A stretch of 64,000 bases of DNA, from assembly GCA_903879985.1 (NCBI GenBank), contig CAIRNR010000007.1, positions 585,925 to 649,924 on the forward strand, written 5' to 3'. The DNA is from an uncultured candidate division WWE3 bacterium (GTDB taxonomy: Bacteria > Patescibacteriota > WWE3 > UBA101185 > UBA10185). Below, in pieces: positions 33,722 through 44,025 of this stretch (position 1 is its first letter; each line of letters opens with the position of its first letter). Below the pieces are notes generated by a model. That model worked only from the letters and a program-made list of their open reading frames with translations. It was not told the DNA's origin and ran no database searches. Both the position numbers and the translations under genes were made by a program.

Positions 33722-34162
33722 TTATCTTTCAACCTCAACGCCCATTGCACGTGCTGTACCTGCTACAATTTTAACGGCTTCGGCTAATTCTTTGGTATTT
33801 AAATCTGGCATCTTAATTTTAGCTATATCTTCAACTTGAGCTTTAGTTAATTTACCGACTTTATTCTTGTTAGGTACACCTGAACCTTTAGCAATTTTTA
33901 ATGCTTTTTTAATTAAGTGAGATGTAACTGGTGTTTTAGTTATAAAGGTGAATGTACGATCCTCGTAGGCTGTTAAAATTACTGGAATAACGTCATCGCC
34001 CATTGATTGGGTTTTAGCGTTGAATTCCTTACAGAAATCCATAATTGGCACTCCGTGTTGTCCTAATGCAGGACCAATTGGAGGAGCTGGGTTTGCTTTA
34101 CCTGCTGGTATTGCCAATTTAACGATAGCTTTTATTTTTTTACCTTTTTTTACTTCTGCCAT
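33722..34162 (-). CDS. rplK: 50S ribosomal protein L11
   Basis: '[37 protein letters not shown]'. Confidence 0.9.
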
Positions 34163-34172
34163 AATTTTTCCT

Positions 34173-34799
34173 TTATAGTTGGGTAACTTGAGTGAAGTCC
34201 AGTTCTAACGGAGTTTCACGTCCAAATACTGATACTAAAACCCTAACTTTTCCTTGTTCATCATTAACTTCATCTACTTTACCTAAAAAGTCTTTGAAAG
34301 GTCCGTCGTTAACTTTAACTGAATCACCAACGGCGAACTTAGCTTCGAACTTAGGAGCTTCCATTTTAGCAAACTTCATCAAAGTTCTCACTTCTGATTC
34401 TGCTAGTGGAGTAGGGGTACTTCCCATGCCTACAAATCCTGTTACTCCTGGTGTAGTTCGGACAATATACCATGAATCATCCTCCATGCGCATCTGTACC
34501 ATCATATAACCTGGAAATAGCTTTTCGTCCACGGCTCTTTTTTTACCTTCTGAAACCACAATCTTTTGTTGATGTGGTACGAATATTTTAAAAATTCTGT
34601 CTGTAAATCCACCGGCTTCAGCTCTTTGTTTTAAAGTAATAGCAACTTTGTTTTCGTGACCTGAGTATGTATGTACAACGTACCAGTGAGCTCTTGGGTC
34701 AATATCTGGGTTAACGACAATTACTTTATCGTCCATGACAATAGGTGTCTGGGTTTCTTCATTTGTATCTGTTTTTTTTGTTTCGTCCATATTATCCAT
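34173..34799 (-). CDS. nusG: Transcription termination/antitermination factor NusG (with about 35-aa acidic N-terminal extension)
   Basis: '[14 protein letters not shown]...' NGN domain and KOW '...[25 protein letters not shown]...'. Confidence 0.85.
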
Positions 34800-34806
34800 A
34801 CTTGTA

Positions 34807-34992
34807 TTATTTATTTAACAGCACTGTTAACAATTGTGCAAATACTAAGTCAAAGAGCATTACGAATAAGCCAACGCCTAAACTAACACCTATTACAAAG
34901 CCAGTCAAGCGGGTAGTTTCTTGCTTGGTAGGCCAGGTGACTTTTTTAAGTTCTGCGTATGCTTCTTGAAAAAAGTTCTTTATCGATTGCAC
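34807..34992 (-). CDS. secE: Preprotein translocase subunit SecE
   Basis: 61 aa, '...ELKKVTWPTKQETTRLTGFVIGVSLGVGLFVMLFDLVFAQLL', immediately upstream of nusG. Confidence 0.7.
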   Translation of the reverse strand: MQSIKNFFQEAYAELKKVTWPTKQETTRLTGFVIGVSLGVGLFVMLFDLVFAQLLTVLLNK

Positions 34993-37516: not shown

Positions 37517-37918
37517 ATGAAACGTCGTTTGCAGTTAATTGCAAGAAAGTATGCACTGCCTGTATTTGGTGCCTTAGCACTGGTTTTTGGCTTGGCGCTA
37601 AGTTTTACCCCGGTTGCAGCGCAGTCAAGTTCGGGTTGGGCAACACCTACGCCGACTCCGCTGCCATCTACGTGGATCCCCCGCTGTGAACATGCGTTGG
37701 ACCAGATCGTTGGTATCAACCAGGCTGAATTCTATTCAGGACAGGTAGCATATTGCGTGCAGACCCTGCAATATGCTTATTCGAATGGAGCCTCGCTGAA
37801 TGTGGCATCGTTGCAGGTTGTTCGGCATTGGGAATATCGGTTTCATTTTAACGATAGTTCCTATATAGCAGGATATGCAATGGCCGAACTGCTTCGCCCA
37901 TCGTACATTTACCGCTAA
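37517..37918 (+). CDS. Small secreted hypothetical protein (signal peptide; Pro/Thr linker); first gene of the GC-richer accessory island
   Basis: RBS 'ataaggagag' before the ATG; signal 'ALPVFGALALVFGLALSFTPVAAQ'; by eye this segment is noticeably GC-richer than the flanks. Confidence 0.5.
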   Translation: MKRRLQLIARKYALPVFGALALVFGLALSFTPVAAQSSSGWATPTPTPLPSTWIPRCEHALDQIVGINQAEFYSGQVAYCVQTLQYAYSNGASLNVASLQVVRHWEYRFHFNDSSYIAGYAMAELLRPSYIYR

Positions 37919-37937
37919 AAGCTTTTTCTCTACACGT

Positions 37938-37986
37938 CCGGAATCTGTTATCACCAAATGATCACAGGTTCCGGATATTTTTTGTT
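37938..37986 (+). terminator. Rho-independent terminator (16-bp imperfect stem ccggaatctgttatca/tgatcacaggttccgg plus T-run)
   Basis: Read directly after the stop of 37517..37918. Confidence 0.6.
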
Positions 37987-38050
37987 ATCCACAAATTAGC
38001 TATAAGCTGTTGATAACTTTAGCTATAAGTCTTGTGGGGGATTTATGTTG

Positions 38051-38272
38051 CTACTGCGCTAGTAAATCGCTTGGGGATACTTTTAAAGCATTCGCGATAT
38101 CCACAATTTTCTTAAATGAAGGGTTACCTTCACCTCGTTCTATTTTTCCCATATATGATCGTTCGATTTTGGCTTTGTATGCCAAATCTTCCTGCGATAA
38201 ACCATCACGTAATCGCAGTGATTTTATTTTCTTTCCGAGAGCTTCTTGAGCTTTATACAACTGTACTGTCAT
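38051..38272 (-). CDS. XRE-family (Cro/C1-type) helix-turn-helix transcriptional regulator
   Basis: 'LRLRDGLSQEDLAYKAKIERSYMGKIERGEGNPSFKKIVDIANALKVSPSDLL'. Confidence 0.65.
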   Translation of the reverse strand: MTVQLYKAQEALGKKIKSLRLRDGLSQEDLAYKAKIERSYMGKIERGEGNPSFKKIVDIANALKVSPSDLLAQ

Positions 38273-38331
38273 AACCAGTTAATCATGGTTATTCGTTGCT
38301 TTACAGTCCACGTGATATATTACTCACAGGT

Positions 38332-38838
38332 ATGTGTTTAATGTTGCAGCCTATTGTTAAATGGAGTTTTTATCCTTCTGTTTCTGTGGCTAAATTAAAT
38401 TCACTTATCGGCGAAGATCTATTACTTACTTCTGATTTACACCGACTTTCTGGCAGCGTGACCTTTGACTTTGCCAGAAAAATATCTTGGGTTTCGTGTG
38501 CGCAAGGTACTTATACAATTCTTCTAAATTCACCCTATTGCTTTTTAGTTCGGCATAAACTAGTAGATGCCACGGACGTGATTATTTATTTCAATGTCTA
38601 TCGCAGAATACTTAATAAAAAACATGTTTGCACAGGTTATTTGGTTGTGGAAAATTCCGGTAACTCTGAAAGGAGTAGGGAAGTATATGTTTTATTCGAT
38701 TTCGCTGAAGCTCGTTTAAAAGTTAAGCACTCTACGTCCACGAATGCTTCAGATGTTCTCGATGATTTTGGTAACGCTAGCAATACTCCAAACGTGATGT
38801 GTTACGAACATGAATTTTTCTCTTTCGAGGTGATATAA
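38332..38838 (+). CDS. Hypothetical protein (island; divergent from the XRE regulator)
   Basis: ORF 38296..38838; start placed at an internal Met because the annotated start lies 24 bp from the divergent gene. Confidence 0.35.
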   Translation: MCLMLQPIVKWSFYPSVSVAKLNSLIGEDLLLTSDLHRLSGSVTFDFARKISWVSCAQGTYTILLNSPYCFLVRHKLVDATDVIIYFNVYRRILNKKHVCTGYLVVENSGNSERSREVYVLFDFAEARLKVKHSTSTNASDVLDDFGNASNTPNVMCYEHEFFSFEVI

Positions 38839-38866
38839 TTTTTATAATCAAAAAGGAGACCGCTCA

Positions 38867-39115
38867 ATGAAACAGCCAAATTTTGTTGGAAACGAAAACT
38901 GGGCAATTATGTTTGCAATGCGTCGTGGATTTACTCCCGGCTGCGTGGTTACTTCACCTGAAAAATTACATTATGATGTACTTTCGGATGTGAACATGTC
39001 CAATGACCACTTATTTGTACACGTACGCCCTGCTGGAATGTGTGATGCTGTGCTTCGTGATGTGACGATTGATATGAACACCAATGTCGTTTCATGGGGC
39101 GTACAGGCGATATGA
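38867..39115 (+). CDS. Hypothetical small protein (82 aa)
   Basis: Strong RBS 'aaaaggagac' 7 nt upstream of the ATG. Confidence 0.45.
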   Translation: MKQPNFVGNENWAIMFAMRRGFTPGCVVTSPEKLHYDVLSDVNMSNDHLFVHVRPAGMCDAVLRDVTIDMNTNVVSWGVQAI

Positions 39116-39216
39116 GCTACAAAGCTTCTTTAATAAAGGCTTGATTTAATAAAACAAATCAGGCCTTTCGTTTCCCCGGCGATACTTTTTATCCAAAATA
39201 TAATACAATTTACGTA

Positions 39217-40422
39217 ATGCCCGAAGAAATTAAATCCTTATTTGACTTTAAGGATTCAAAACCCAAATCATTATATAAAGTCACGTTTGGTGGTTGGTAC
39301 CAAAGAACTACACTTCATTTATCGGAAGTGTACGAATATTTAAAAAATTCTGATTCCCGATTAAATTTAGACAAAGACAAACTGAAGGTTTTACATGCGG
39401 CTCTTGGACTTGGGGAAGTTACACGTGAGTTGGGTTATTTAGAATATGTAAAAGCACAAACAATAGACGGTATAGATATCAAATATTATGAGGATGGCTT
39501 ATTTGTTTTGGAAACCATGAATTCTGATGTTGTTGCTGCCAAGGAAAAACTGGAAAAGTTTTATGAAGCTAAGTTTAACCCGGCACTAAGTTACATTTTT
39601 TCTCTAGGTGCGCCTACACCAAAGATATTAGCAAATCTAAAAACTCAGCACCCAACGGTTGTTTCTTACACGCTAAAGGATAAGTCTAAATTTGAGACGC
39701 CAGAAAATATTTACAGCAAGGTTGTTTCACCTGACATTGATGTTTACAAATCAAACGATTTTATTTACATAGTTAAAAAAGATAAAAGCACCGTTTCACT
39801 TGACGAGGTTGTTGAAATGCAAATATTTTTTCGCGAGTTCAAGGACCAATTGGAGAAATATTTAAATATTCATCGTCGCGTTTGGGAAGATATCTCGGAA
39901 ATAAAAGATAGCGGAAGTATAAAAATAAAAGAAATAGATCCAATCAGAAAAAAACTTGATGCTTATCAAAAAACAATTAGTCTGATTTCAAATCGTATAA
40001 ACCAAATGGGTTCATATGTTCGCACGCGCCAGTCTATAGCTAAAAAAGCGGGGATTGATGAACATTTACAGAACATGTTTCAGTATCGATTTGAGGTTTT
40101 AATAGATACTTTGGATTATATAAAGGAAATTTGGAAAATGACGACAGACTATGTCAATTCTGCCATACAGGTTGTAGTCGAACTTCAGAACTCTGCAACT
40201 AACAAAAGTATTCAATCATTGACCTTAATTACATCTATGGGAGTAATTGCAGGGCTTGTAGCTTATTTATCTCGTGATACTTATCCAAAAATTACATTGG
40301 TGGGCGCAACATACTTGGGAGGACTGCTGTTTGTTGGTTGGTTACTTAATAAAGCCGTTGCCGTTTGGGTAGCAAATAGAAAACAGCGCTTGAAGTTTAC
40401 AAAAACAGATAGCGATATTTAG
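39217..40422 (+). CDS. CorA/MIT-superfamily-like membrane protein lacking the GMN signature (large cytoplasmic N-domain, long helix, two C-terminal TM helices)
   Basis: C-terminus 'NKSIQSLTLITSMGVIAGLVAYLSRDTYPKITLVGATYLGGLLFVGWLLNKAVAVWVANRKQRLKF' parallels CorA 'N.vMK.LT.iT.IF.P.TfIaGiYGMNF...KRK.WL', but 'YGMNF' is replaced by 'VAYLSRD'. Confidence 0.45.
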   Translation: MPEEIKSLFDFKDSKPKSLYKVTFGGWYQRTTLHLSEVYEYLKNSDSRLNLDKDKLKVLHAALGLGEVTRELGYLEYVKAQTIDGIDIKYYEDGLFVLETMNSDVVAAKEKLEKFYEAKFNPALSYIFSLGAPTPKILANLKTQHPTVVSYTLKDKSKFETPENIYSKVVSPDIDVYKSNDFIYIVKKDKSTVSLDEVVEMQIFFREFKDQLEKYLNIHRRVWEDISEIKDSGSIKIKEIDPIRKKLDAYQKTISLISNRINQMGSYVRTRQSIAKKAGIDEHLQNMFQYRFEVLIDTLDYIKEIWKMTTDYVNSAIQVVVELQNSATNKSIQSLTLITSMGVIAGLVAYLSRDTYPKITLVGATYLGGLLFVGWLLNKAVAVWVANRKQRLKFTKTDSDI

Positions 40423-40671
40423 CTAGTTTAGAAAACATAGGCCCCCTTTCAAGCCAAATTTGTTTGAGAGAGGGTCGTGAGAGAGATACACGCACAACTT
40501 AATATTTGTAATTCGAGGGCAAATTTTTAGCTCTTTGAGTTTTTTGTTTATGCACGGTAAGGCACCCGTGTTATTTCTGTTGTGCAAAGATGTTTGCAGA
40601 TTTTGGCTATTGCGCTTCACTTTTTTCATGTTTAGACTATAAGTAATTACTCTCTAGAAAAGGAGAACGCA

Positions 40672-40959
40672 ATGAATTTGTCTACTTCCCTTTATACGTA
40701 TGGTGTATGCATTAATCCCGTCGTGCGAGAAAGACTTCGTCGAAAAGAAATTAAAGAAGCTGTTCTTGATGTGTTGCGGGAAAACCTTTTACCTCCATTA
40801 ACCGTTCTGGGAATTATGCGCCGGCTTAAAGAAAAGCATATCTGCGCCTCTGTCCAGGACATCGAGCGTGCCATTCAGCAGTTAAAGCGCTCCGGTGAAA
40901 GTATTAGCATTATCGTTACAAGAACTGTTACAGTTAGCTTCCATGATTCCGGTGATTAA
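40672..40959 (+). CDS. Hypothetical small protein (95 aa; possibly a winged-helix fold)
   Basis: RBS 'aaaaggagaacgca' before the ATG; ORF in track. Confidence 0.4.
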   Translation: MNLSTSLYTYGVCINPVVRERLRRKEIKEAVLDVLRENLLPPLTVLGIMRRLKEKHICASVQDIERAIQQLKRSGESISIIVTRTVTVSFHDSGD

Positions 40960-41080
40960 AAACCAGGGGGATTTTAGGTGACAAGGCCCGATGTATACTA
41001 TGTATATTTCGGGTCTTTTTTTATTCCCTTTTTAGGGCGTATAATCCAGAAAATACATCAAGAAGTAGAAGGAGTAATCA

Positions 41081-41335
41081 ATGAAAGCAGAAGATATTAC
41101 TTTGAGAGTAGTGCGACTTGATCCGGGGGAGCTTAACCAAATTATGAGTACAAAAGGGTTTACGCTGCTCGCGTTGGCTGAAAAAACCGGAATTGCTGCG
41201 GTTACCTTAGCATGTTTGCTTGAAGGCAAAACGCCTCTTACACATTCTTGGGCGCTTAGTATTTGCACTGCTTTAGAAATTTCTTTTGTAGATACCTTCG
41301 GGGACCTGTTTGAGCAGCCAGCACATATCAACTGA
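41081..41335 (+). CDS. XRE-family HTH regulator (84 aa)
   Basis: 'NQIMSTKGFTLLALAEKTGIAAVTLACLLEGKTPLTHSWALSICTALEISFVDTF'; -10 'GCGTATAATCC' at about 41034..41044 and RBS 'gaaggag'. Confidence 0.55.
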   Translation: MKAEDITLRVVRLDPGELNQIMSTKGFTLLALAEKTGIAAVTLACLLEGKTPLTHSWALSICTALEISFVDTFGDLFEQPAHIN

Positions 41336-41378
41336 TAAAGAAATCAAAAAAATAAAAATGATAGAAAGGAAGGAAAAA

Positions 41379-41651
41379 ATGGAGAAGGTAGTGGGAGCCC
41401 GCGGCGAAATATTATATGCCTCATTCGGCAATGCCGCCTATCCGGTGCAAGTTACTTATATAGGCATGTCGGATGGTTTGCAGGTTACCGGAGCACGCAT
41501 ATACGCCGAAGGAAAACGTATTGGTATTTGGAACGCCAACCCTGATGCAAGTCACGCCCCCAAGCAACTTGCAAAATCTTTGGCTGCCTACATTACCCAA
41601 ATCTTGAACCACAAGAACTGGGAAGCTCACAGCTCGGTTTATCCAGATTAA
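41379..41651 (+). CDS. Hypothetical protein (about 90 aa)
   Basis: ORF 41310..41651; the likely start is the ATG at 41379, preceded by 'aaggaagg'. Confidence 0.35.
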   Translation: MEKVVGARGEILYASFGNAAYPVQVTYIGMSDGLQVTGARIYAEGKRIGIWNANPDASHAPKQLAKSLAAYITQILNHKNWEAHSSVYPD

Positions 41652-41671
41652 AATCAATGGATAAACTTAAA

Positions 41672-41710
41672 GGTCAACTTAACAAAAGTAAGTTGGCCTT
41701 TTCTTTTTTA
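41672..41710 (+). terminator. Rho-independent terminator (ggtcaactta/taagttggcc stem, T-rich tail)
   Basis: Read directly downstream of 41651. Confidence 0.55.
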
Positions 41711-41720
41711 TATCGTAAAT

Positions 41721-41762
41721 AAAAAAAGGTTAGCTTATCTGTTGTTTTAGATAGGCTAACCT
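41721..41762 (-). terminator. Terminator for the minus-strand two-gene operon (14-bp stem aggttagcttatct/agataggctaacct; A7 on plus = U7 on minus)
   Basis: Read directly. Confidence 0.55.
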
Positions 41763-41785
41763 TTATGGTCTTGCGACATTAGGCA

Positions 41786-42172
41786 TTATGCGGCCGGTAG
41801 AATGTACGGCAAGGTAAATAAGACTATATCGTAGGAGAAAAGCGAATTAATATCGCCTTCTGTGAACGTGATATATACCTTTGATCCATAACGGCTAAGG
41901 GGCATAAGTTCATAAATTCCCTTATGATAATTTTCTGCTCGGGCAAGTGCGTACCAGGTTGCATCTATAAAAGTAGGACCCTTTGTAAATACATATCCCC
42001 GAATGTCTACTTCCCATGCGCGCTTGGCGTAGTCCAGGTTATATTCGTTGCATATTCCTGTTGTGGGCCAGACACTTTTTGGTAAAAAGGGAAGCCACAT
42101 CTTAACGGTTCGGGCGCTTTTTATTTTCATTCCCTTCATTTCTTCAAGGTTTATGATCTGTGGTGCGGACAT
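41786..42172 (-). CDS. Hypothetical protein (128 aa), second gene of a two-gene operon
   Basis: ORF in track; 13 bp after the upstream gene. Confidence 0.4.
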   Translation of the reverse strand: MSAPQIINLEEMKGMKIKSARTVKMWLPFLPKSVWPTTGICNEYNLDYAKRAWEVDIRGYVFTKGPTFIDATWYALARAENYHKGIYELMPLSRYGSKVYITFTEGDINSLFSYDIVLFTLPYILPAA

Positions 42173-42185
42173 CTTTGTCTCTCCT

Positions 42186-42458
42186 CTACATTTCTATTTT
42201 TTTTAGTTCCTCGATAAGATCTTTTATGATTTGTGTAAGTTCATCGCGGGTTGCTTCGACAAAACCGGGGTTTTTGTAGATAATCAAAGCTCTGGCGGCG
42301 AGTGCTTCAACTGTTGGATAGGTTTTTGGTATTACTCCCAGATTTTTGGCCGTTTCCATATGTTCCCTCACAAGTTCTTTACTGAAAGGGAAGTATATCG
42401 GTTCAACAAAAAGCAGGTCGTTTTCGAGCTGTGTAATAAGCTCTAAAAATGTATACAT
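42186..42458 (-). CDS. Hypothetical protein (90 aa), first gene of a two-gene operon divergent from an XRE regulator
   Basis: RBS 'aaaaggagac' and -10 'CATATAAT' upstream on the minus strand. Confidence 0.45.
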   Translation of the reverse strand: MYTFLELITQLENDLLFVEPIYFPFSKELVREHMETAKNLGVIPKTYPTVEALAARALIIYKNPGFVEATRDELTQIIKDLIEELKKIEM

Positions 42459-42562
42459 GTGCTTGTCTCCTTTTCTTTTTTGTCTAATTAAGCGCGATTA
42501 TATGCTAGGTGATTAGCTAACGCAATTTAACAGGGGTATAATCCACGAAATTAATCAAGTCT

Positions 42563-42832
42563 ATGTTAAAGGAGAGAACAGTTATGAAACTTGTTAAGCA
42601 GCCGGTAATTGTAACGTTGGTTTTTCTGGAAAATGAGGAAGAGTTGATGGATTTGGCACGAAAGGAAGGTTGTGAAACACCCGAAAATTTTGCTCGCGAG
42701 GCCAACATACCAATTTCACAAATGTACGGAATATTAAAAGGGGAGATTGGTATAACAAAGGATATGGCGATTCAATTTGCGAATGGCATGGGTGTATCGC
42801 TACGAAAATTATTTGGCAATGTTTTTGATTAA
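42563..42832 (+). CDS. XRE-family HTH regulator (89 aa)
   Basis: 'ENFAREANIPISQMYGILKGEIGITKDMAIQFANGMGVSLRKLF'; -10 'GGGTATAATCC', RBS 'aaaggagag'. Confidence 0.6.
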   Translation: MLKERTVMKLVKQPVIVTLVFLENEEELMDLARKEGCETPENFAREANIPISQMYGILKGEIGITKDMAIQFANGMGVSLRKLFGNVFD

Positions 42833-42847
42833 TATGCTTAAAAAGAA

Positions 42848-42893
42848 AGACCCTCGAAATGTTTTGTTACATTTGAGGGTCCTTTGTATTTAT
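42848..42893. terminator. Bidirectional rho-independent terminator (13-bp stem gaccctcgaaatgt/acatttgagggtc flanked by an A-run and a T-run)
   Basis: Read directly between the convergent genes 42563..42832(+) and 42896..43294(-). Confidence 0.65.
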
Positions 42894-42895
42894 TA

Positions 42896-43219
42896 TTACT
42901 CTGATTGTAGCCCGGCAATTATTTTGATAAGTGTCGGACCCTGCACTTTTCGAATCTCGTGGGCTATCATGCCGAATATCATATTGCGTGGCGGATTTTT
43001 CAAAGCTTCAAGTTCATTGATTCTTATATTTCCATCCTCGATCCATACTGCAACCCACGGCTTACTTTTTGGAAATAATTTATCCAGGTGGTGCGGAACG
43101 ATAAGCAAGTGGGCAGGTTCTTTTTTATTGTCTACAATTTTATGTCCCGCTTGGGTTAATATTTCCTGCAATACCTTTTTGTGTTCCGGGAATGCTCTAA
43201 AGCCAACTAATGCTATTTT
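42896..43219 (-). CDS. Hypothetical protein (about 108 aa)
   Basis: ORF 42896..43294; start trimmed to 'MKIALVGF...' to avoid a 60-nt overlap with the upstream ORF. Confidence 0.35.
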   Translation of the reverse strand, partial: KIALVGFRAFPEHKKVLQEILTQAGHKIVDNKKEPAHLLIVPHHLDKLFPKSKPWVAVWIEDGNIRINELEALKNPPRNMIFGMIAHEIRKVQGPTLIKIIAGLQSE

Positions 43220-43233
43220 CATGCTTTCCTTCC

Positions 43234-43569
43234 TTATAAGTGGACCCAATATATTGCATGTTGCGAGGCATACTTTGTTGCACAACCGTACCATTTTTCT
43301 ACAGGTTCTTGTGCAACAATTTCACTTGCTTTTGCCCGTATTTCCTGGGAAGTTTTTGTAATTAATCCCGCCTGACGAAGCTCGCCGACCTTATCTGAAA
43401 AGATTATGTCTATGCGCATCCGGTCAGCAGGATCCTTTGTTGTGTCGATTGCTTTTCGGTACCGTACCATGAATTCTCGATCTAATTCGTAAACAATAGC
43501 TTCCAGTATTGTCATCATCACCATCGTGACTTTTTGCTCCGTAGACATGCTATCAAGTGTCGTACTCAT
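43234..43569 (-). CDS. Hypothetical protein (111 aa)
   Basis: Strong RBS 'aaaaggaggaagttaaa' upstream on the minus strand. Confidence 0.45.
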   Translation of the reverse strand: MSTTLDSMSTEQKVTMVMMTILEAIVYELDREFMVRYRKAIDTTKDPADRMRIDIIFSDKVGELRQAGLITKTSQEIRAKASEIVAQEPVEKWYGCATKYASQHAIYWVHL

Positions 43570-43651: not shown

Positions 43652-43725
43652 TGGCAGGGACGGAGTGAATCGAACACTCATTGGCGGTTTTGGAGACCGC
43701 AATCCTACCATTGAATGACGTCCCT
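43652..43725 (-). tRNA. tRNA-Trp (anticodon CCA), 3' CCA encoded
   Basis: Reverse complement AGGGACGUCAUUCAAUGGUAGGAUUGCGGUCUCCAAAACCGCCAAUGAGUGUUCGAUUCACUCCGUCCCUGCCA folds as a cloverleaf; anticodon loop CUCCAAA. Confidence 0.85.
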
Positions 43726-43736
43726 AAAAAATTTAC

Positions 43737-43812
43737 TGGAGCCCACTCGCGGAATCGGACCGCGGACCACTTCCTTACCATGGAAGTGCTCTACCAACTG
43801 AGCTAAGTGGGC
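43737..43812 (-). tRNA. tRNA-Thr (anticodon GGU), CCA encoded
   Basis: Reverse complement GCCCACUUAGCUCAGUUGGUAGAGCACUUCCAUGGUAAGGAAGUGGUCCGCGGUCCGAUUCCGCGAGUGGGCUCCA; anticodon loop AUGGUAA. Confidence 0.8.
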
Positions 43813-43836
43813 ATCTCCGTTAGGAACAATTTTGCA

Positions 43837-43922
43837 TGGTGCCGGGAGAGGGATTTGGACCCCCGAAGGCGTACGCCAGCTGATTTACAGTCAGCTCCAT
43901 TTGACCACTTTGGTATCCCGGC
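43837..43922 (-). tRNA. tRNA-Tyr (anticodon GUA) with long variable arm, CCA encoded
   Basis: Reverse complement GCCGGGAUACCAAAGUGGUCAAAUGGAGCUGACUGUAAAUCAGCUGGCGUACGCCUUCGGGGGUCCAAAUCCCUCUCCCGGCACCA. Confidence 0.8.
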
Positions 43923-43950
43923 AAAATATTTCTAAACACTAAAGCTTTTC

Positions 43951-44025
43951 TGGAGCCAAAGGTGGGAATCGGACCCACAACCTGCTGTTTACAAAACAGC
44001 TGCTCTACCATTGAGCTACTTTGGC
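43951..44025 (-). tRNA. tRNA-Thr (anticodon UGU), CCA encoded
   Basis: Reverse complement GCCAAAGUAGCUCAAUGGUAGAGCAGCUGUUUUGUAAACAGCAGGUUGUGGGUCCGAUUCCCACCUUUGGCUCCA; anticodon loop UUUGUAA. Confidence 0.8.

What the first reader, a model, noticed from the sequence alone, without database searches (positions are those of the whole stretch)
38051..40422. XRE regulator divergent from a three-gene operon ending in a GMN-less CorA-like membrane protein
The XRE gene (38051..38272, minus strand) faces ORFs of 169, 82 and 401 aa. The imperfect inverted repeat AACCAGTTAATCATGGTT (AACCA-N8-TGGTT) lies in the 60-bp divergent region. The 401-aa protein has CorA topology and the 'LT.IT...IAG' helix-1 signature, but it lacks the YGMNF ion-selectivity loop. 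This suggests a repurposed pore or effector rather than a Mg2+ channel, i.e. the kind of membrane-disrupting effector used by abortive-infection systems.
Basis: partly seen in the sequence, partly recalled or inferred. Interest (0 to 1): 0.55.

Follow-up and report, generated by a model that had tools for sequence, protein, structure and literature searches.

The report
GMN-less CorA-like membrane channel gene
The 401-residue protein is a real but very divergent relative of the CorA magnesium channel that has lost the GMN motif and belongs to a conserved family of ultra-small (CPR) bacteria and DPANN archaea; the neighbouring XRE regulator and two small genes are species-specific orphans, not conserved partners in a defence operon.

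Summary
The sequence features exist as described: an XRE/HTH gene (38051..38272, minus), ORFs of 165-180, 82 and 401 aa, and an inverted repeat (really ATAACCA-N8-TGGTTAT, only about 7% chance level).

The AlphaFold2 model (pLDDT 84.8) finds CorA structures as top Foldseek hits. Distant family members carry canonical FFGMN exactly where the window protein has A349-Y350-L351. Those members pass Pfam CorA and align to the window clade at hhalign probability 100%, E 4.6e-70. The window protein belongs to a monophyletic GMN-less clade found in many CPR lineages and in DPANN archaea.

The operon and abortive-infection reading is not supported:
- None of 84 related loci carries the XRE or either small ORF.
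- There is no conserved neighbour and no defence-family hit.
- Both small ORFs are orphans with only self-hits in 5.8 billion proteins.
- A strong hairpin (z -3.8) separates them from the 401-aa gene.

Most likely this is a stand-alone CorA-type pore with an altered selectivity loop, gated by a highly conserved cytoplasmic domain. Its substrate is unknown. It is a new variant of a known kind and of moderate interest.

The parts
38051..38272 (-). XRE-family HTH regulator, 73 aa. It is generic and not linked to the CorA-like gene in other genomes.
   Evidence: HTH_3 E 1.4e-12. The best PADLOC model is the R-M 'control protein', 58 bits. It is at most 47% identical to phage HTH proteins. No homologue lies near any of 84 relatives of the 401-aa gene.
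38271..38292 (.). Inverted repeat ATAACCA-N8-TGGTTAT overlapping the XRE start codon. It is a possible autoregulatory operator, but statistically weak.
Evidence: 7-bp arms are reached by 7.3% of shuffles and 6.4% of 90-nt window tiles. There is no second copy nearby.
38341..38838 (+). Orphan ORF of 165 aa (alternative starts ATG 38332 = 168 aa, TTG 38296 = 180 aa). Function unknown.
   Evidence: Only a self-hit in 5.8e9 proteins, seen on 23 contigs of the same species. No Pfam, NCBIfam, PADLOC or PHROG hit. Codon-usage score -0.025, with its own frame the best of six. The single-sequence AF2 model was unusable, pLDDT 43.6.
38867..39115 (+). Orphan ORF of 82 aa with an AAAGGAG ribosome-binding site 7 nt upstream. 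Function unknown.
   Evidence: Only a self-hit, on 28 contigs. No family hits. Codon-usage score 0.020, with its own frame best.
39135..39168 (+). 13-bp-stem hairpin in the 101-nt gap between the 82-aa ORF and the 401-aa gene. It is a likely transcript boundary, though the U-tract is weak.
   Evidence: MFE -19 kcal/mol against shuffles at -10.3 +/- 2.3, z -3.84, 0 of 200 shuffles as stable. The strict terminator scan did not call it because the T-run is short.
39217..40422 (+). Gene for a 401-aa GMN-less CorA-superfamily membrane protein. Cytoplasmic alpha/beta domain 17-194, helical bundle 195-330, TM1 331-351, loop 352-360, TM2 361-386, basic tail 387-394.
   Evidence: AF2 pLDDT 84.8, pTM 0.77. 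Foldseek top hits are CorA. 1043 homologues. hhalign to the GMN-type subfamily: prob 100%, E 4.6e-70. GMN-type members pass Pfam CorA.
40261..40269 (+). Codons A349-Y350-L351, the position homologous to CorA G312-M313-N314 (clade consensus G-Y-L).
   Evidence: Alignment A2 places FFGMN of 21 distant family members in these columns. The chained profile alignment to T. maritima CorA agrees, as does hhalign. Clade conservation is G 76%, Y 76%, L 76%, followed by S352 79%, P357 98%, T360 98%.
40552..40581 (+). Terminator-like hairpin plus T-rich tail about 130 nt downstream of the 401-aa stop codon.
   Evidence: Consensus scan, stem GCACGG..CCGTGT followed by TATTTCTGTT. This is a pattern match only.

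Best explanation
The region holds two unrelated things.

(1) 39217..40422 is a stand-alone gene, probably with its own transcription unit. It encodes a divergent CorA-superfamily membrane protein. Its architecture matches CorA: a cytoplasmic alpha/beta domain, a helical bundle, a long stalk helix continuing into pore helix TM1, a short outer loop, an outer helix TM2 and a basic C-terminal tail. It belongs to a compact family restricted, as far as sampled, to CPR/Patescibacteria and DPANN-type archaea. That family has three loop types: canonical FFGMN, a roughly 31-residue GMN-less loop, and the window's monophyletic short-loop clade, in which GMN is replaced by (G/A)-Y-L-S...P..T.

Inferred mechanism: it assembles like CorA into a (presumably pentameric) pore lined by the conserved face of TM1. 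The gating apparatus, meaning the extremely conserved cytoplasmic domain and stalk, is retained from the GMN-bearing ancestor. The external selectivity loop has been exchanged, so the conducted species is probably no longer hydrated Mg2+ selected by the Asn ring. It is a constitutive chromosomal transport or homeostasis gene, not a triggered suicide effector.

(2) The XRE gene and the divergent 165-aa and 82-aa ORFs are species-specific orphan genes in an ORFan/HTH-rich stretch. XRE may autoregulate through the weak inverted repeat over its start codon.

Shown: homology, fold, loss of GMN, clade structure, and absence of conserved partners. Inferred: oligomeric state, conduction, altered selectivity, transcription units.
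For: Fold:
- AF2 model pLDDT 84.8.
- The Foldseek PDB top ~35 hits are all CorA, CmaX or MRS2, with probabilities mostly 0.95-1.0 and E from 5e-4.

Homology chain:
- The clade-A profile finds only 287 representatives at 50% identity in 1.84e9 proteins. These include GMN-type proteins at E 1e-42 to 1e-64 over the full length.
- Alignment A2 puts their FFGMN(I/V)AFPWE in the columns of A349-Y350-L351.
- All 5 GMN-type members tested hit Pfam CorA PF01544, three above the gathering score (38.0, 32.8 and 27.6 bits).
- Pairwise tblastn of P0185 against the window gives E 5e-40. The GMN-type HMM scores 269 bits against p401 and 17.8 bits against the T. maritima CorA TM1-GMN-TM2 region.
- hhalign of clade A against the GMN type: probability 100%, E 4.6e-70, 384 columns.
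- The GMN-type profile against PDB returns T. maritima CorA as its top six hits.

Still a pore rather than decay:
- TM1 is as conserved as the soluble helices (0.75), with an i/i+3/i+4/i+7 stripe (I332, S334, L335, I338, T339, G342, V343, G346).
- TM2 is at 0.48, as expected for inner and outer helices. The replacement loop is itself conserved (P357 and T360 at 98%). A basic tail follows TM2.
- The GMN-less clade is monophyletic: 33 of 91 representatives.

Stand-alone gene:
- 0 of 84 loci have XRE, orf165 or orf82, and there is no recurrent neighbour.
- A hairpin lies in the upstream gap.
- TATAAT lies 10 nt before the ATG and there is no Shine-Dalgarno sequence (read from the sequence).
- The small ORFs are orphans.
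Against: - No direct Pfam, NCBIfam or PDB sequence hit for the window protein itself. hhalign against single CorA sequences found nothing.
- Foldseek TM-scores are low (0.26-0.32; 0.40-0.42 against cytoplasmic-domain-only CorA structures) and E-values are marginal.
- The Asn of GMN is regarded as essential for CorA conduction (established knowledge), so a GMN-less protein may not conduct at all.
- In this family the most conserved part is the cytoplasmic domain, the reverse of canonical CorA. This could point to a non-transport role.
- At least 118 of 185,579 species genomes carry it (limited by the search pattern). Such a sparse spread at 45-64% identity across phyla and domains looks like a horizontally spread accessory gene.
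- In this window it sits among ORFans and HTH genes, a context where defence genes also live.
- Oligomeric state and transport were not testable here.
Confidence: 0.6

Rival explanations
1. XRE controls a three-gene operon (165-aa, 82-aa and 401-aa genes), and the GMN-less CorA-like protein is a membrane-disrupting effector of an abortive-infection or defence system. This would be analogous to the SAM-AMP-activated CorA effector of type III-B CRISPR systems.
For: - A CorA-family membrane effector in defence is a real precedent (PMC12255297, read).
- The protein is CorA-like and lacks GMN.
- It lies in an ORFan/HTH-rich stretch next to an XRE gene whose best PADLOC model is an R-M control protein.
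- The family has a patchy distribution with high identity across distant lineages.
- All three ORFs are on the same strand.
Against: - 0 of 84 loci with a relative carry XRE, orf165 or orf82, and no conserved neighbour of any kind exists.
- Neighbours in the contexts inspected are housekeeping genes.
- There are no PADLOC or PHROG hits for the three proteins.
- No cas, NrN or SAM-AMP lyase genes lie within 10 kb.
- orf165 and orf82 exist only in this species.
- A hairpin and a 101-nt gap precede the 401-aa gene.
- No relatives occur in viral contigs.
- The GMN-less clade keeps every cytoplasmic motif of its GMN-bearing sisters. That argues for continuity of function rather than repurposing.
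Confidence: 0.07
2. The protein keeps the CorA scaffold but no longer conducts ions. The very conserved cytoplasmic domain would be the functional part (ligand or metal sensor, or binding platform for a conserved partner), with the two TM helices serving as a membrane anchor.
For: - Across all three loop types, the near-invariant residues are all cytoplasmic or in the stalk: G25, W27, H34, L35, E37, E92, D93, G94, G131, A132, L216, H219, R220, W223, R260, Q263, M264, Y301, M308, T309. None is in the membrane.
- The outer loop varies from 9 to about 31 residues between subfamilies.
- The Asn of GMN is lost.
Against: - Within the window's clade, TM1 is strongly conserved with helical periodicity typical of a packed or pore-lining face, and the replacement loop has invariant P357 and T360.
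- Sister proteins retain a canonical GMN and pass Pfam CorA.
- A mere anchor would not need two TM helices plus a conserved basic tail.
Confidence: 0.2
3. The protein is still an ordinary Mg2+/Co2+ CorA channel despite losing GMN. It would be the organism's housekeeping Mg2+ uptake route, with another motif substituting for GMN.
For: - Full CorA architecture, a conserved TM1 and a basic tail.
- GMN-bearing sisters in the same family.
- No canonical CorA in the 64-kb window.
- The closest relative lies next to a TM-only MgtE gene in one genome.
Against: - GMN is the defining and functionally essential motif of Mg2+-conducting CorA/Mrs2/Alr1 proteins (established knowledge). Here it is A-Y-L, with no Asn or acidic ring in the 9-residue loop consensus.
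- The family is too sparse (at least 118 species genomes) to be the general Mg2+ route of CPR bacteria.
- Only 64 kb of the genome was inspected, so other Mg2+ transporters cannot be excluded.
Confidence: 0.13

Closest known systems
CorA / MIT superfamily Mg2+/Co2+ channels (Pfam PF01544; T. maritima CorA, PDB 2iub, 4i0u, 3jcf; M. jannaschii 4ev6)
   Same: - Same domain order and topology: cytoplasmic alpha/beta domain, helical bundle, long stalk helix continuous with TM1, short external loop, TM2 and a basic C-terminal tail.
- Top structural matches.
- Homologous through GMN-bearing intermediates.
- The IAG before the motif aligns.
   Different: - No GMN: A349-Y350-L351, clade consensus G-Y-L.
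- No direct Pfam hit.
- The cytoplasmic domain, not the TM1-GMN region, is the most conserved part, with family-specific motifs GGWYQRTTLHLSE, YYEDGLY, FSLGAPTPK, FFREFKDQLEKYLNIHR and NRINQMGSY.
- The family is restricted to CPR and DPANN-type genomes.
GMN-type members of the same family (e.g. P0218, P0185, P0174; archaeal-looking contexts)
   Same: Full-length homologues (25-27% identity; E 1e-30 to 5e-40 pairwise; hhalign 100%). They share all the cytoplasmic signature residues.
   Different: - They carry FFGMN(I/V)AFPWEERW and pass or approach the Pfam CorA threshold.
- They form a separate clade.
- Both contexts seen lie next to an MJ0043_C-domain gene.
CRISPR type III-B associated CorA effector (Bacteroides fragilis; SAM-AMP activated; PMC12255297)
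   Same: A CorA-family membrane protein used for something other than routine Mg2+ uptake.
   Different: - That effector is encoded next to cmr/cas10 genes and an NrN phosphodiesterase or SAM-AMP lyase.
- None of these is near the window gene or in the relatives' loci whose gene tables were read.
ZntB / CmaX (CorA-superfamily Zn2+ and related transporters; PDB 7nh9)
   Same: They show that the CorA scaffold supports other selectivities. CmaX appears among the Foldseek hits (rank 32).
   Different: They keep a GxN-type motif (established knowledge). They showed no sequence similarity to the window protein in the PDB searches.

Membership tests
CorA / MIT superfamily (PF01544) | Architecture: N-terminal cytoplasmic alpha/beta domain, long stalk helix continuous with TM1, and two C-terminal TM helices with N-in/C-in topology | tested here: met
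   AF2 secondary-structure map: strands and helices 20-190, helices 195-232 and 237-278, helix 292-351, helix 361-386. Foldseek top hits are CorA. The basic tail after TM2 supports a cytoplasmic C-terminus.
CorA / MIT superfamily (PF01544) | Detectable sequence homology to CorA family models | tested here: met
   The direct Pfam scan is negative. The transitive link is strong: hhalign to GMN-type sisters gives prob 100%, E 4.6e-70, and those sisters hit PF01544 at up to 38 bits, E 1.6e-9, above the gathering score of 27. They also hit T. maritima CorA in PDB.
CorA / MIT superfamily (PF01544) | GMN (GxN) signature at the external end of TM1 | tested here: not met
   The window has A349-Y350-L351 and the clade consensus is G-Y-L. 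0 of 42 close relatives have GMN, while 21 of 91 family representatives have it in the same columns.
CorA / MIT superfamily (PF01544) | Homopentameric funnel with a TM1-lined pore | not testable with these tools
   Only a monomer could be predicted. The periodic TM1 conservation is compatible with a pore but is not proof.
CorA / MIT superfamily (PF01544) | Mg2+/Co2+/Ni2+ transport | not testable with these tools
   This needs complementation or flux assays.
CRISPR type III-associated CorA effector | Encoded adjacent to type III cas (cas10/cmr) genes | tested here: not met
   The gene table 10 kb either side lists ATP synthase, ribosomal proteins, SecE, NusG, FolD, LMWPc, ORFans, L28, Fmt, Def, TopA and MFS, with no cas genes. 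The same holds for the relatives' loci inspected.
CRISPR type III-associated CorA effector | Partner NrN phosphodiesterase or SAM-AMP lyase next to the CorA gene | tested here: not met
   No such Pfam family appears in the neighbourhood tables. The requirement is taken from PMC12255297.
Known anti-phage defence / abortive-infection systems (PADLOC-DB) | Match of the effector or partner proteins to a defence-system model, and a conserved multi-gene module | tested here: not met
   No PADLOC hit for the 401-, 82- or 180-aa proteins. 0 of 84 loci retain the putative partners. No neighbour family recurs in more than 15 of 84 loci.
XRE / Cro-C1 HTH regulators (PF01381) | HTH_3 domain | tested here: met
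   PF01381 47.9 bits, E 1.4e-12, covering residues 16-70.
R-M controller (C) proteins | Located with a restriction-modification pair, with a C-box operator upstream | tested here: not met
   The best PADLOC model is 'control protein', but no R-M genes are present in the neighbourhood. The only inverted repeat is statistically weak.

The most novel reading that the evidence does not exclude
The window protein may represent an uncharacterised branch of the CorA superfamily, specific to ultra-small episymbiotic prokaryotes and exchanged between CPR bacteria and DPANN archaea. In this branch the supposedly universal GMN filter has been replaced twice, by a short G-Y-L-S..P..T loop and by a loop of about 31 residues, while an unusually conserved cytoplasmic sensor domain is kept. 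On this reading it is a ligand-gated pore with a new selectivity (another cation or a small metabolite) tied to the host-dependent lifestyle. The natural GMN, short-loop and long-loop series would be a ready-made system for asking what the GMN loop does.
Probability: 0.25. Interest if true: 0.65.

Novelty: new variant of a known kind. Interest (0 to 1): 0.4.

Why it matters
GMN is treated as the defining, essential signature of CorA/Mrs2/Alr1 channels.

This family offers a natural experiment on how the CorA scaffold changes selectivity or function. It has no Pfam or NCBIfam model and is annotated only as 'hypothetical protein'. It contains a canonical GMN clade and two GMN-less clades that share one extremely conserved cytoplasmic domain.

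It also adds a conserved membrane protein to the short list of genes shared specifically by CPR bacteria and DPANN archaea, whose transport capacities are poorly understood.

For the scan itself, the useful outcome is negative. The XRE, orphan and CorA-like arrangement is a species-specific juxtaposition, not a new defence system.

Tried and rejected
- Direct family searches of the 401-aa protein (Pfam, NCBIfam, PADLOC, PHROGs) gave nothing significant.
- phmmer and the clade profile against PDB sequences gave only chance hits.
- hhalign of the clade alignment against single T. maritima and E. coli CorA sequences gave probability below 1%.
- Single-sequence AF2 of the 165-aa orphan gave pLDDT 43.6 and was unusable. 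No fold search was attempted.
- Strain comparison for dN/dS of the orphan ORFs failed because the same-species contigs are 99.97-100% identical.
- A search for att-like direct repeats of the adjacent tRNA genes, to delimit an integrated element, found none of 10 nt or more (tRNA-Trp) or 12 nt or more (all four tRNAs).
- A search for relatives in IMG/VR viral contigs found none.
- Literature searches for GMN-less CorA or a CorA-like CPR/DPANN protein found no description of this family.
- Considered and rejected: that the 401-aa ORF is a decayed CorA pseudogene. It is full length, with 1043 homologues at 50-64% identity and a conserved replacement loop.
- Considered and rejected: that NQMGSY (residues 262-267) is a displaced GMN. 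It lies in a cytoplasmic helix, not at the end of TM1.
Full report
**What is in the sequence**

The window is a low-GC (about 37%) genome of the CPR/Patescibacteria type. rplK, nusG and secE lie at 33.7-35.0 kb and four tRNAs at 43.65-44.03 kb.

- A 73-aa ORF at 38051..38272 (minus).
- An ORF at 38296..38838. It is 180 aa from TTG, 168 aa from ATG 38332 and 165 aa from ATG 38341. Public gene callers chose the last start.
- An 82-aa ORF at 38867..39115 with a good AAAGGAG site.
- A 401-aa ORF at 39217..40422.

The 73-aa protein is a standard XRE/HTH_3 protein (E 1.4e-12). Its best defence-database match is the generic R-M 'control protein' model.

The quoted inverted repeat is at 38273..38290. 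With 5-bp arms it is at chance level: 57% of shuffles and 50% of window tiles have one. Its true extent is ATAACCA-N8-TGGTTAT (38271..38292), overlapping the XRE start codon. Arms of 7 bp occur in about 7% of shuffles and 6% of tiles. It is a possible operator, not a demonstrated one.

**The 401-aa protein is a CorA-superfamily member**

Direct searches give nothing. These were Pfam, NCBIfam, PADLOC, PHROGs, PDB sequences, and hhalign against single CorA sequences. Three independent lines nevertheless establish the relationship.

*Fold.*
- An AlphaFold2 model built on 42 homologues has pLDDT 84.8 and pTM 0.77.
- It shows an alpha/beta domain (20-190), two long helices (195-232, 237-278), a 60-residue helix (292-351) running into the membrane, a 9-residue loop and a second TM helix (361-386).
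- Foldseek against PDB returns CorA from T. maritima, M. jannaschii, C. jejuni and E. coli, then CmaX and MRS2, as essentially all of the top 35 hits. Probabilities are mostly 0.95-1.0 and E-values start at 5e-4.
- TM-scores are low: 0.26-0.32, or 0.40-0.42 when normalised to cytoplasmic-domain-only CorA structures.

*Bridging sequences.*
- A profile of the close homologues, searched against 1.84 billion representatives, finds only 287 proteins.
- When 90 of these are aligned with the window protein, 21 carry a canonical FFGMN(I/V)AFPWE. It sits exactly in the columns of the window's A349-Y350-L351.

*Those bridging proteins are recognisable CorA.*
- All five tested hit Pfam PF01544. Three score above the gathering threshold: 38.0, 32.8 and 27.6 bits against 27.
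- Their profile finds T. maritima CorA as its top six PDB hits, at a marginal E of 0.011.
- They align to the window clade at hhalign probability 100%, E 4.6e-70, over 384 columns.
- Pairwise, P0185 matches the window at E 5e-40.

Chaining the profile alignments gives these equivalences:
- Window I344-A345-G346 corresponds to CorA I307-A308-G309.
- Window A349-Y350-L351 corresponds to G312-M313-N314.
- Window I332 corresponds to the L294 gate position.

The 'LT' part of the signature is a spacing coincidence.

**The loss of GMN is old and clade-wide**

A neighbour-joining tree built only on cytoplasmic columns separates three groups:
- A pure GMN-less short-loop clade (33 of 91 representatives, including the window).
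- A GMN clade (21 representatives).
- Paraphyletic long-loop GMN-less groups (27 representatives, loop of about 31 residues).

Within the window's clade:
- TM1 is as conserved as the soluble helices (mean top-residue fraction 0.75). It has a periodic stripe at I332, S334, L335, I338, T339, G342, V343 and G346.
- TM2 is much less conserved (0.48).
- The replacement loop has near-invariant P357 and T360.
- A basic tail (N-K/R-K-x-K/R-L-K-F) follows TM2.

This is the pattern expected of an inner pore helix, an outer helix and a CorA-like basic sphincter. It argues against a decaying gene.

The residues conserved across all three loop types are all cytoplasmic or in the stalk: G25, W27, H34, L35, E37, E92-D93-G94, G131-A132, L216, H219, R220, W223, R260, Q263, M264, Y301, M308, T309. 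So the family's common functional core is the cytoplasmic domain, which in CorA is the gating and sensing part.

**Distribution**

Homologues number 1043 clusters at 90% identity. All are unannotated or 'hypothetical', and they come from Parcubacteria/Patescibacteria sources.

A scan of one genome per species found at least 118 genomes. This is limited by the search pattern. The hits include:
- Yanofsky-, Colwell-, Nomura-, Zambryskii-, Collier-, Shapiro-, Woese-, Roizman-, Dojka- and Berkelbacteria.
- Pace-, Woese- and Nanoarchaeota at 45-48% identity.

Two archaeal loci were checked and are truly archaeal. One has L10P/P0 with the archaeal insert and the other has an archaeal CCA-adding enzyme.

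Sparse occurrence combined with 45-64% identity across phyla and domains implies horizontal spread under strong constraint (inference). No relatives were found in IMG/VR viral contigs.

**The operon and defence reading fails**

- In 84 loci encoding relatives, tblastn finds no homologue of XRE73, the 165/180-aa ORF, the 82-aa ORF or any other small ORF of the window's 37.5-43.6 kb stretch.
- Clustering all neighbouring ORFs within 4 kb gives no family present in more than 15 loci. The recurrent ones are lineage-level synteny, such as ABC-F ATPase and an RF-like GGQ protein.
- The closest relative (64% identity) sits between a TM-only MgtE gene and rsmB. Others sit next to PBP1A or ABC transporters.
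- The 165-aa and 82-aa ORFs have only self-hits in 5.8 billion proteins. They look coding by codon usage: their own frame is the best of six, with scores like secE and L28. They are therefore probably real but species-specific orphans.
- The 101-nt gap before the 401-aa gene contains a 13-bp-stem hairpin (dG -19 kcal/mol, z -3.84, 0 of 200 shuffles).
- A TATAAT lies 10 nt upstream of an ATG that lacks a Shine-Dalgarno sequence. This suggests a separate, possibly leaderless, transcript (inference).
- No PADLOC or PHROG model matches the three proteins.
- No cas, NrN or lyase genes are within 10 kb. These genes define the known CorA defence effector (PMC12255297).

**Most likely mechanism**

Shown:
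- The gene encodes a full-length CorA-superfamily protein of a GMN-less clade.
- It has a conserved TM1 and loop and a conserved CorA-type cytoplasmic domain.
- It is inherited and transferred as a single gene.

Inferred:
- It forms a CorA-like oligomeric pore.
- Gating is controlled by the conserved cytoplasmic domain.
- The external mouth, (G/A)-Y-L-S-x4-P-x2-T, no longer provides the Asn ring that captures hydrated Mg2+. The permeant species or the mode of regulation therefore differs.

I put about 0.9 on CorA-superfamily membership, about 0.8 on independence from the XRE/orphan genes, and about 0.5 on it being a conducting channel. The combined statement gets 0.6.

Rivals:
- A non-conducting scaffold or sensor (0.2).
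- An ordinary Mg2+ channel despite losing GMN (0.13).
- The XRE-controlled abortive-infection effector (0.07).

**Novelty and verdict**

No paper describing this family was found, and no curated model covers it. It is a new variant of a known kind, not a new kind of system.

The finding as submitted is half right. The structural insight is correct, but the systems-level interpretation is not supported. Interest is moderate at 0.4. The natural series of GMN, short-loop and long-loop proteins, and the CPR-DPANN sharing, are worth a specialist's look. The function remains open, and nothing points to a new defence mechanism.

Noticed in passing
L077:5992-7155, L081:5989-7167, L065, L070, L080 (loci): Close relatives of the 401-aa protein (45-48% identity) are encoded in genuinely archaeal contigs. 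L077 has archaeal L10P/P0 and L081 has an archaeal CCA-adding enzyme. This implies inter-domain exchange between CPR bacteria and DPANN archaea.
   Followed up: partly
L077:4830-5948; L081:7197-8489; L080:4563-5855: A RuBisCO large-subunit gene lies directly next to the CorA-like gene in three archaeal loci. It is upstream in L077 and downstream in L080 and L081. The RuBisCOs of L077 and L081 are only 40% identical. It is unclear whether this is chance or a functional link.
   Followed up: partly
L089:1421-2704 and L092:1870-3246: Both GMN-type family members whose context could be read (P0185, P0165) lie next to a 427-458-aa protein with an MJ0043_C domain (42% identical to each other). This is a possible conserved partner of the GMN-type subfamily.
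   Followed up: partly
L001:5318-5887 (minus), next to L001:6001-7173: The closest relative of the window protein (P0002, 64% identity) is divergently adjacent to a 189-aa TM-domain-only MgtE gene. This was seen in one genome only.
   Followed up: partly
window 37517..43569: This roughly 6-kb stretch contains almost only ORFans and small HTH proteins: a 133-aa ORF, XRE, the 165-aa and 82-aa ORFs, and then ORFs of 95, 84 (HTH_26), 113, 128, 90, 89 (weak HTH_3), 132 and 111 aa. The CorA-like gene sits in the middle. The stretch lies between housekeeping genes (folD, LMWPc) and a cluster of four tRNAs, and its GC content is slightly higher (0.39-0.43). It looks like a flexible island, but no integrase and no att-like repeat of the tRNAs was found.
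   Followed up: partly
Alignment A2, e.g. P0169, P0190, P0195, P0208: A third subfamily replaces GMN by a loop of about 31 residues (consensus ..LG-x-G........G...G..SF) between TM1 and TM2. One member (P0169) is in a bacterial cell-wall gene neighbourhood (MraY, FtsW, Mur ligases).
   Followed up: partly
window 43652..44025 (minus) and 33722..34992 (minus): tRNA-Thr(tgt), tRNA-Tyr, tRNA-Thr(ggt) and tRNA-Trp, and the secE-nusG-rplK-rplA genes, are all on the minus strand. About 8.6 kb of mostly plus-strand genes separates them. In many bacteria such tRNAs directly precede secE-nusG (own knowledge), so the intervening block may be an insertion.
   Followed up: no
window 41081..41335 and 41310..41651: The 84-aa HTH_26 ORF and the following 113-aa ORF overlap by 26 nt. 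Gene callers in sister strains call the second ORF at different lengths (97 or 90 aa), and the next gene is 117 or 128 aa. This indicates differing gene calls, or possibly small strain differences, downstream of the CorA-like gene.
   Followed up: no
window 40423..40629 (minus): A 68-aa ORF on the opposite strand starts immediately after the stop codon of the 401-aa gene. It overlaps the terminator-like hairpin at 40552..40571 and is probably spurious.
   Followed up: no
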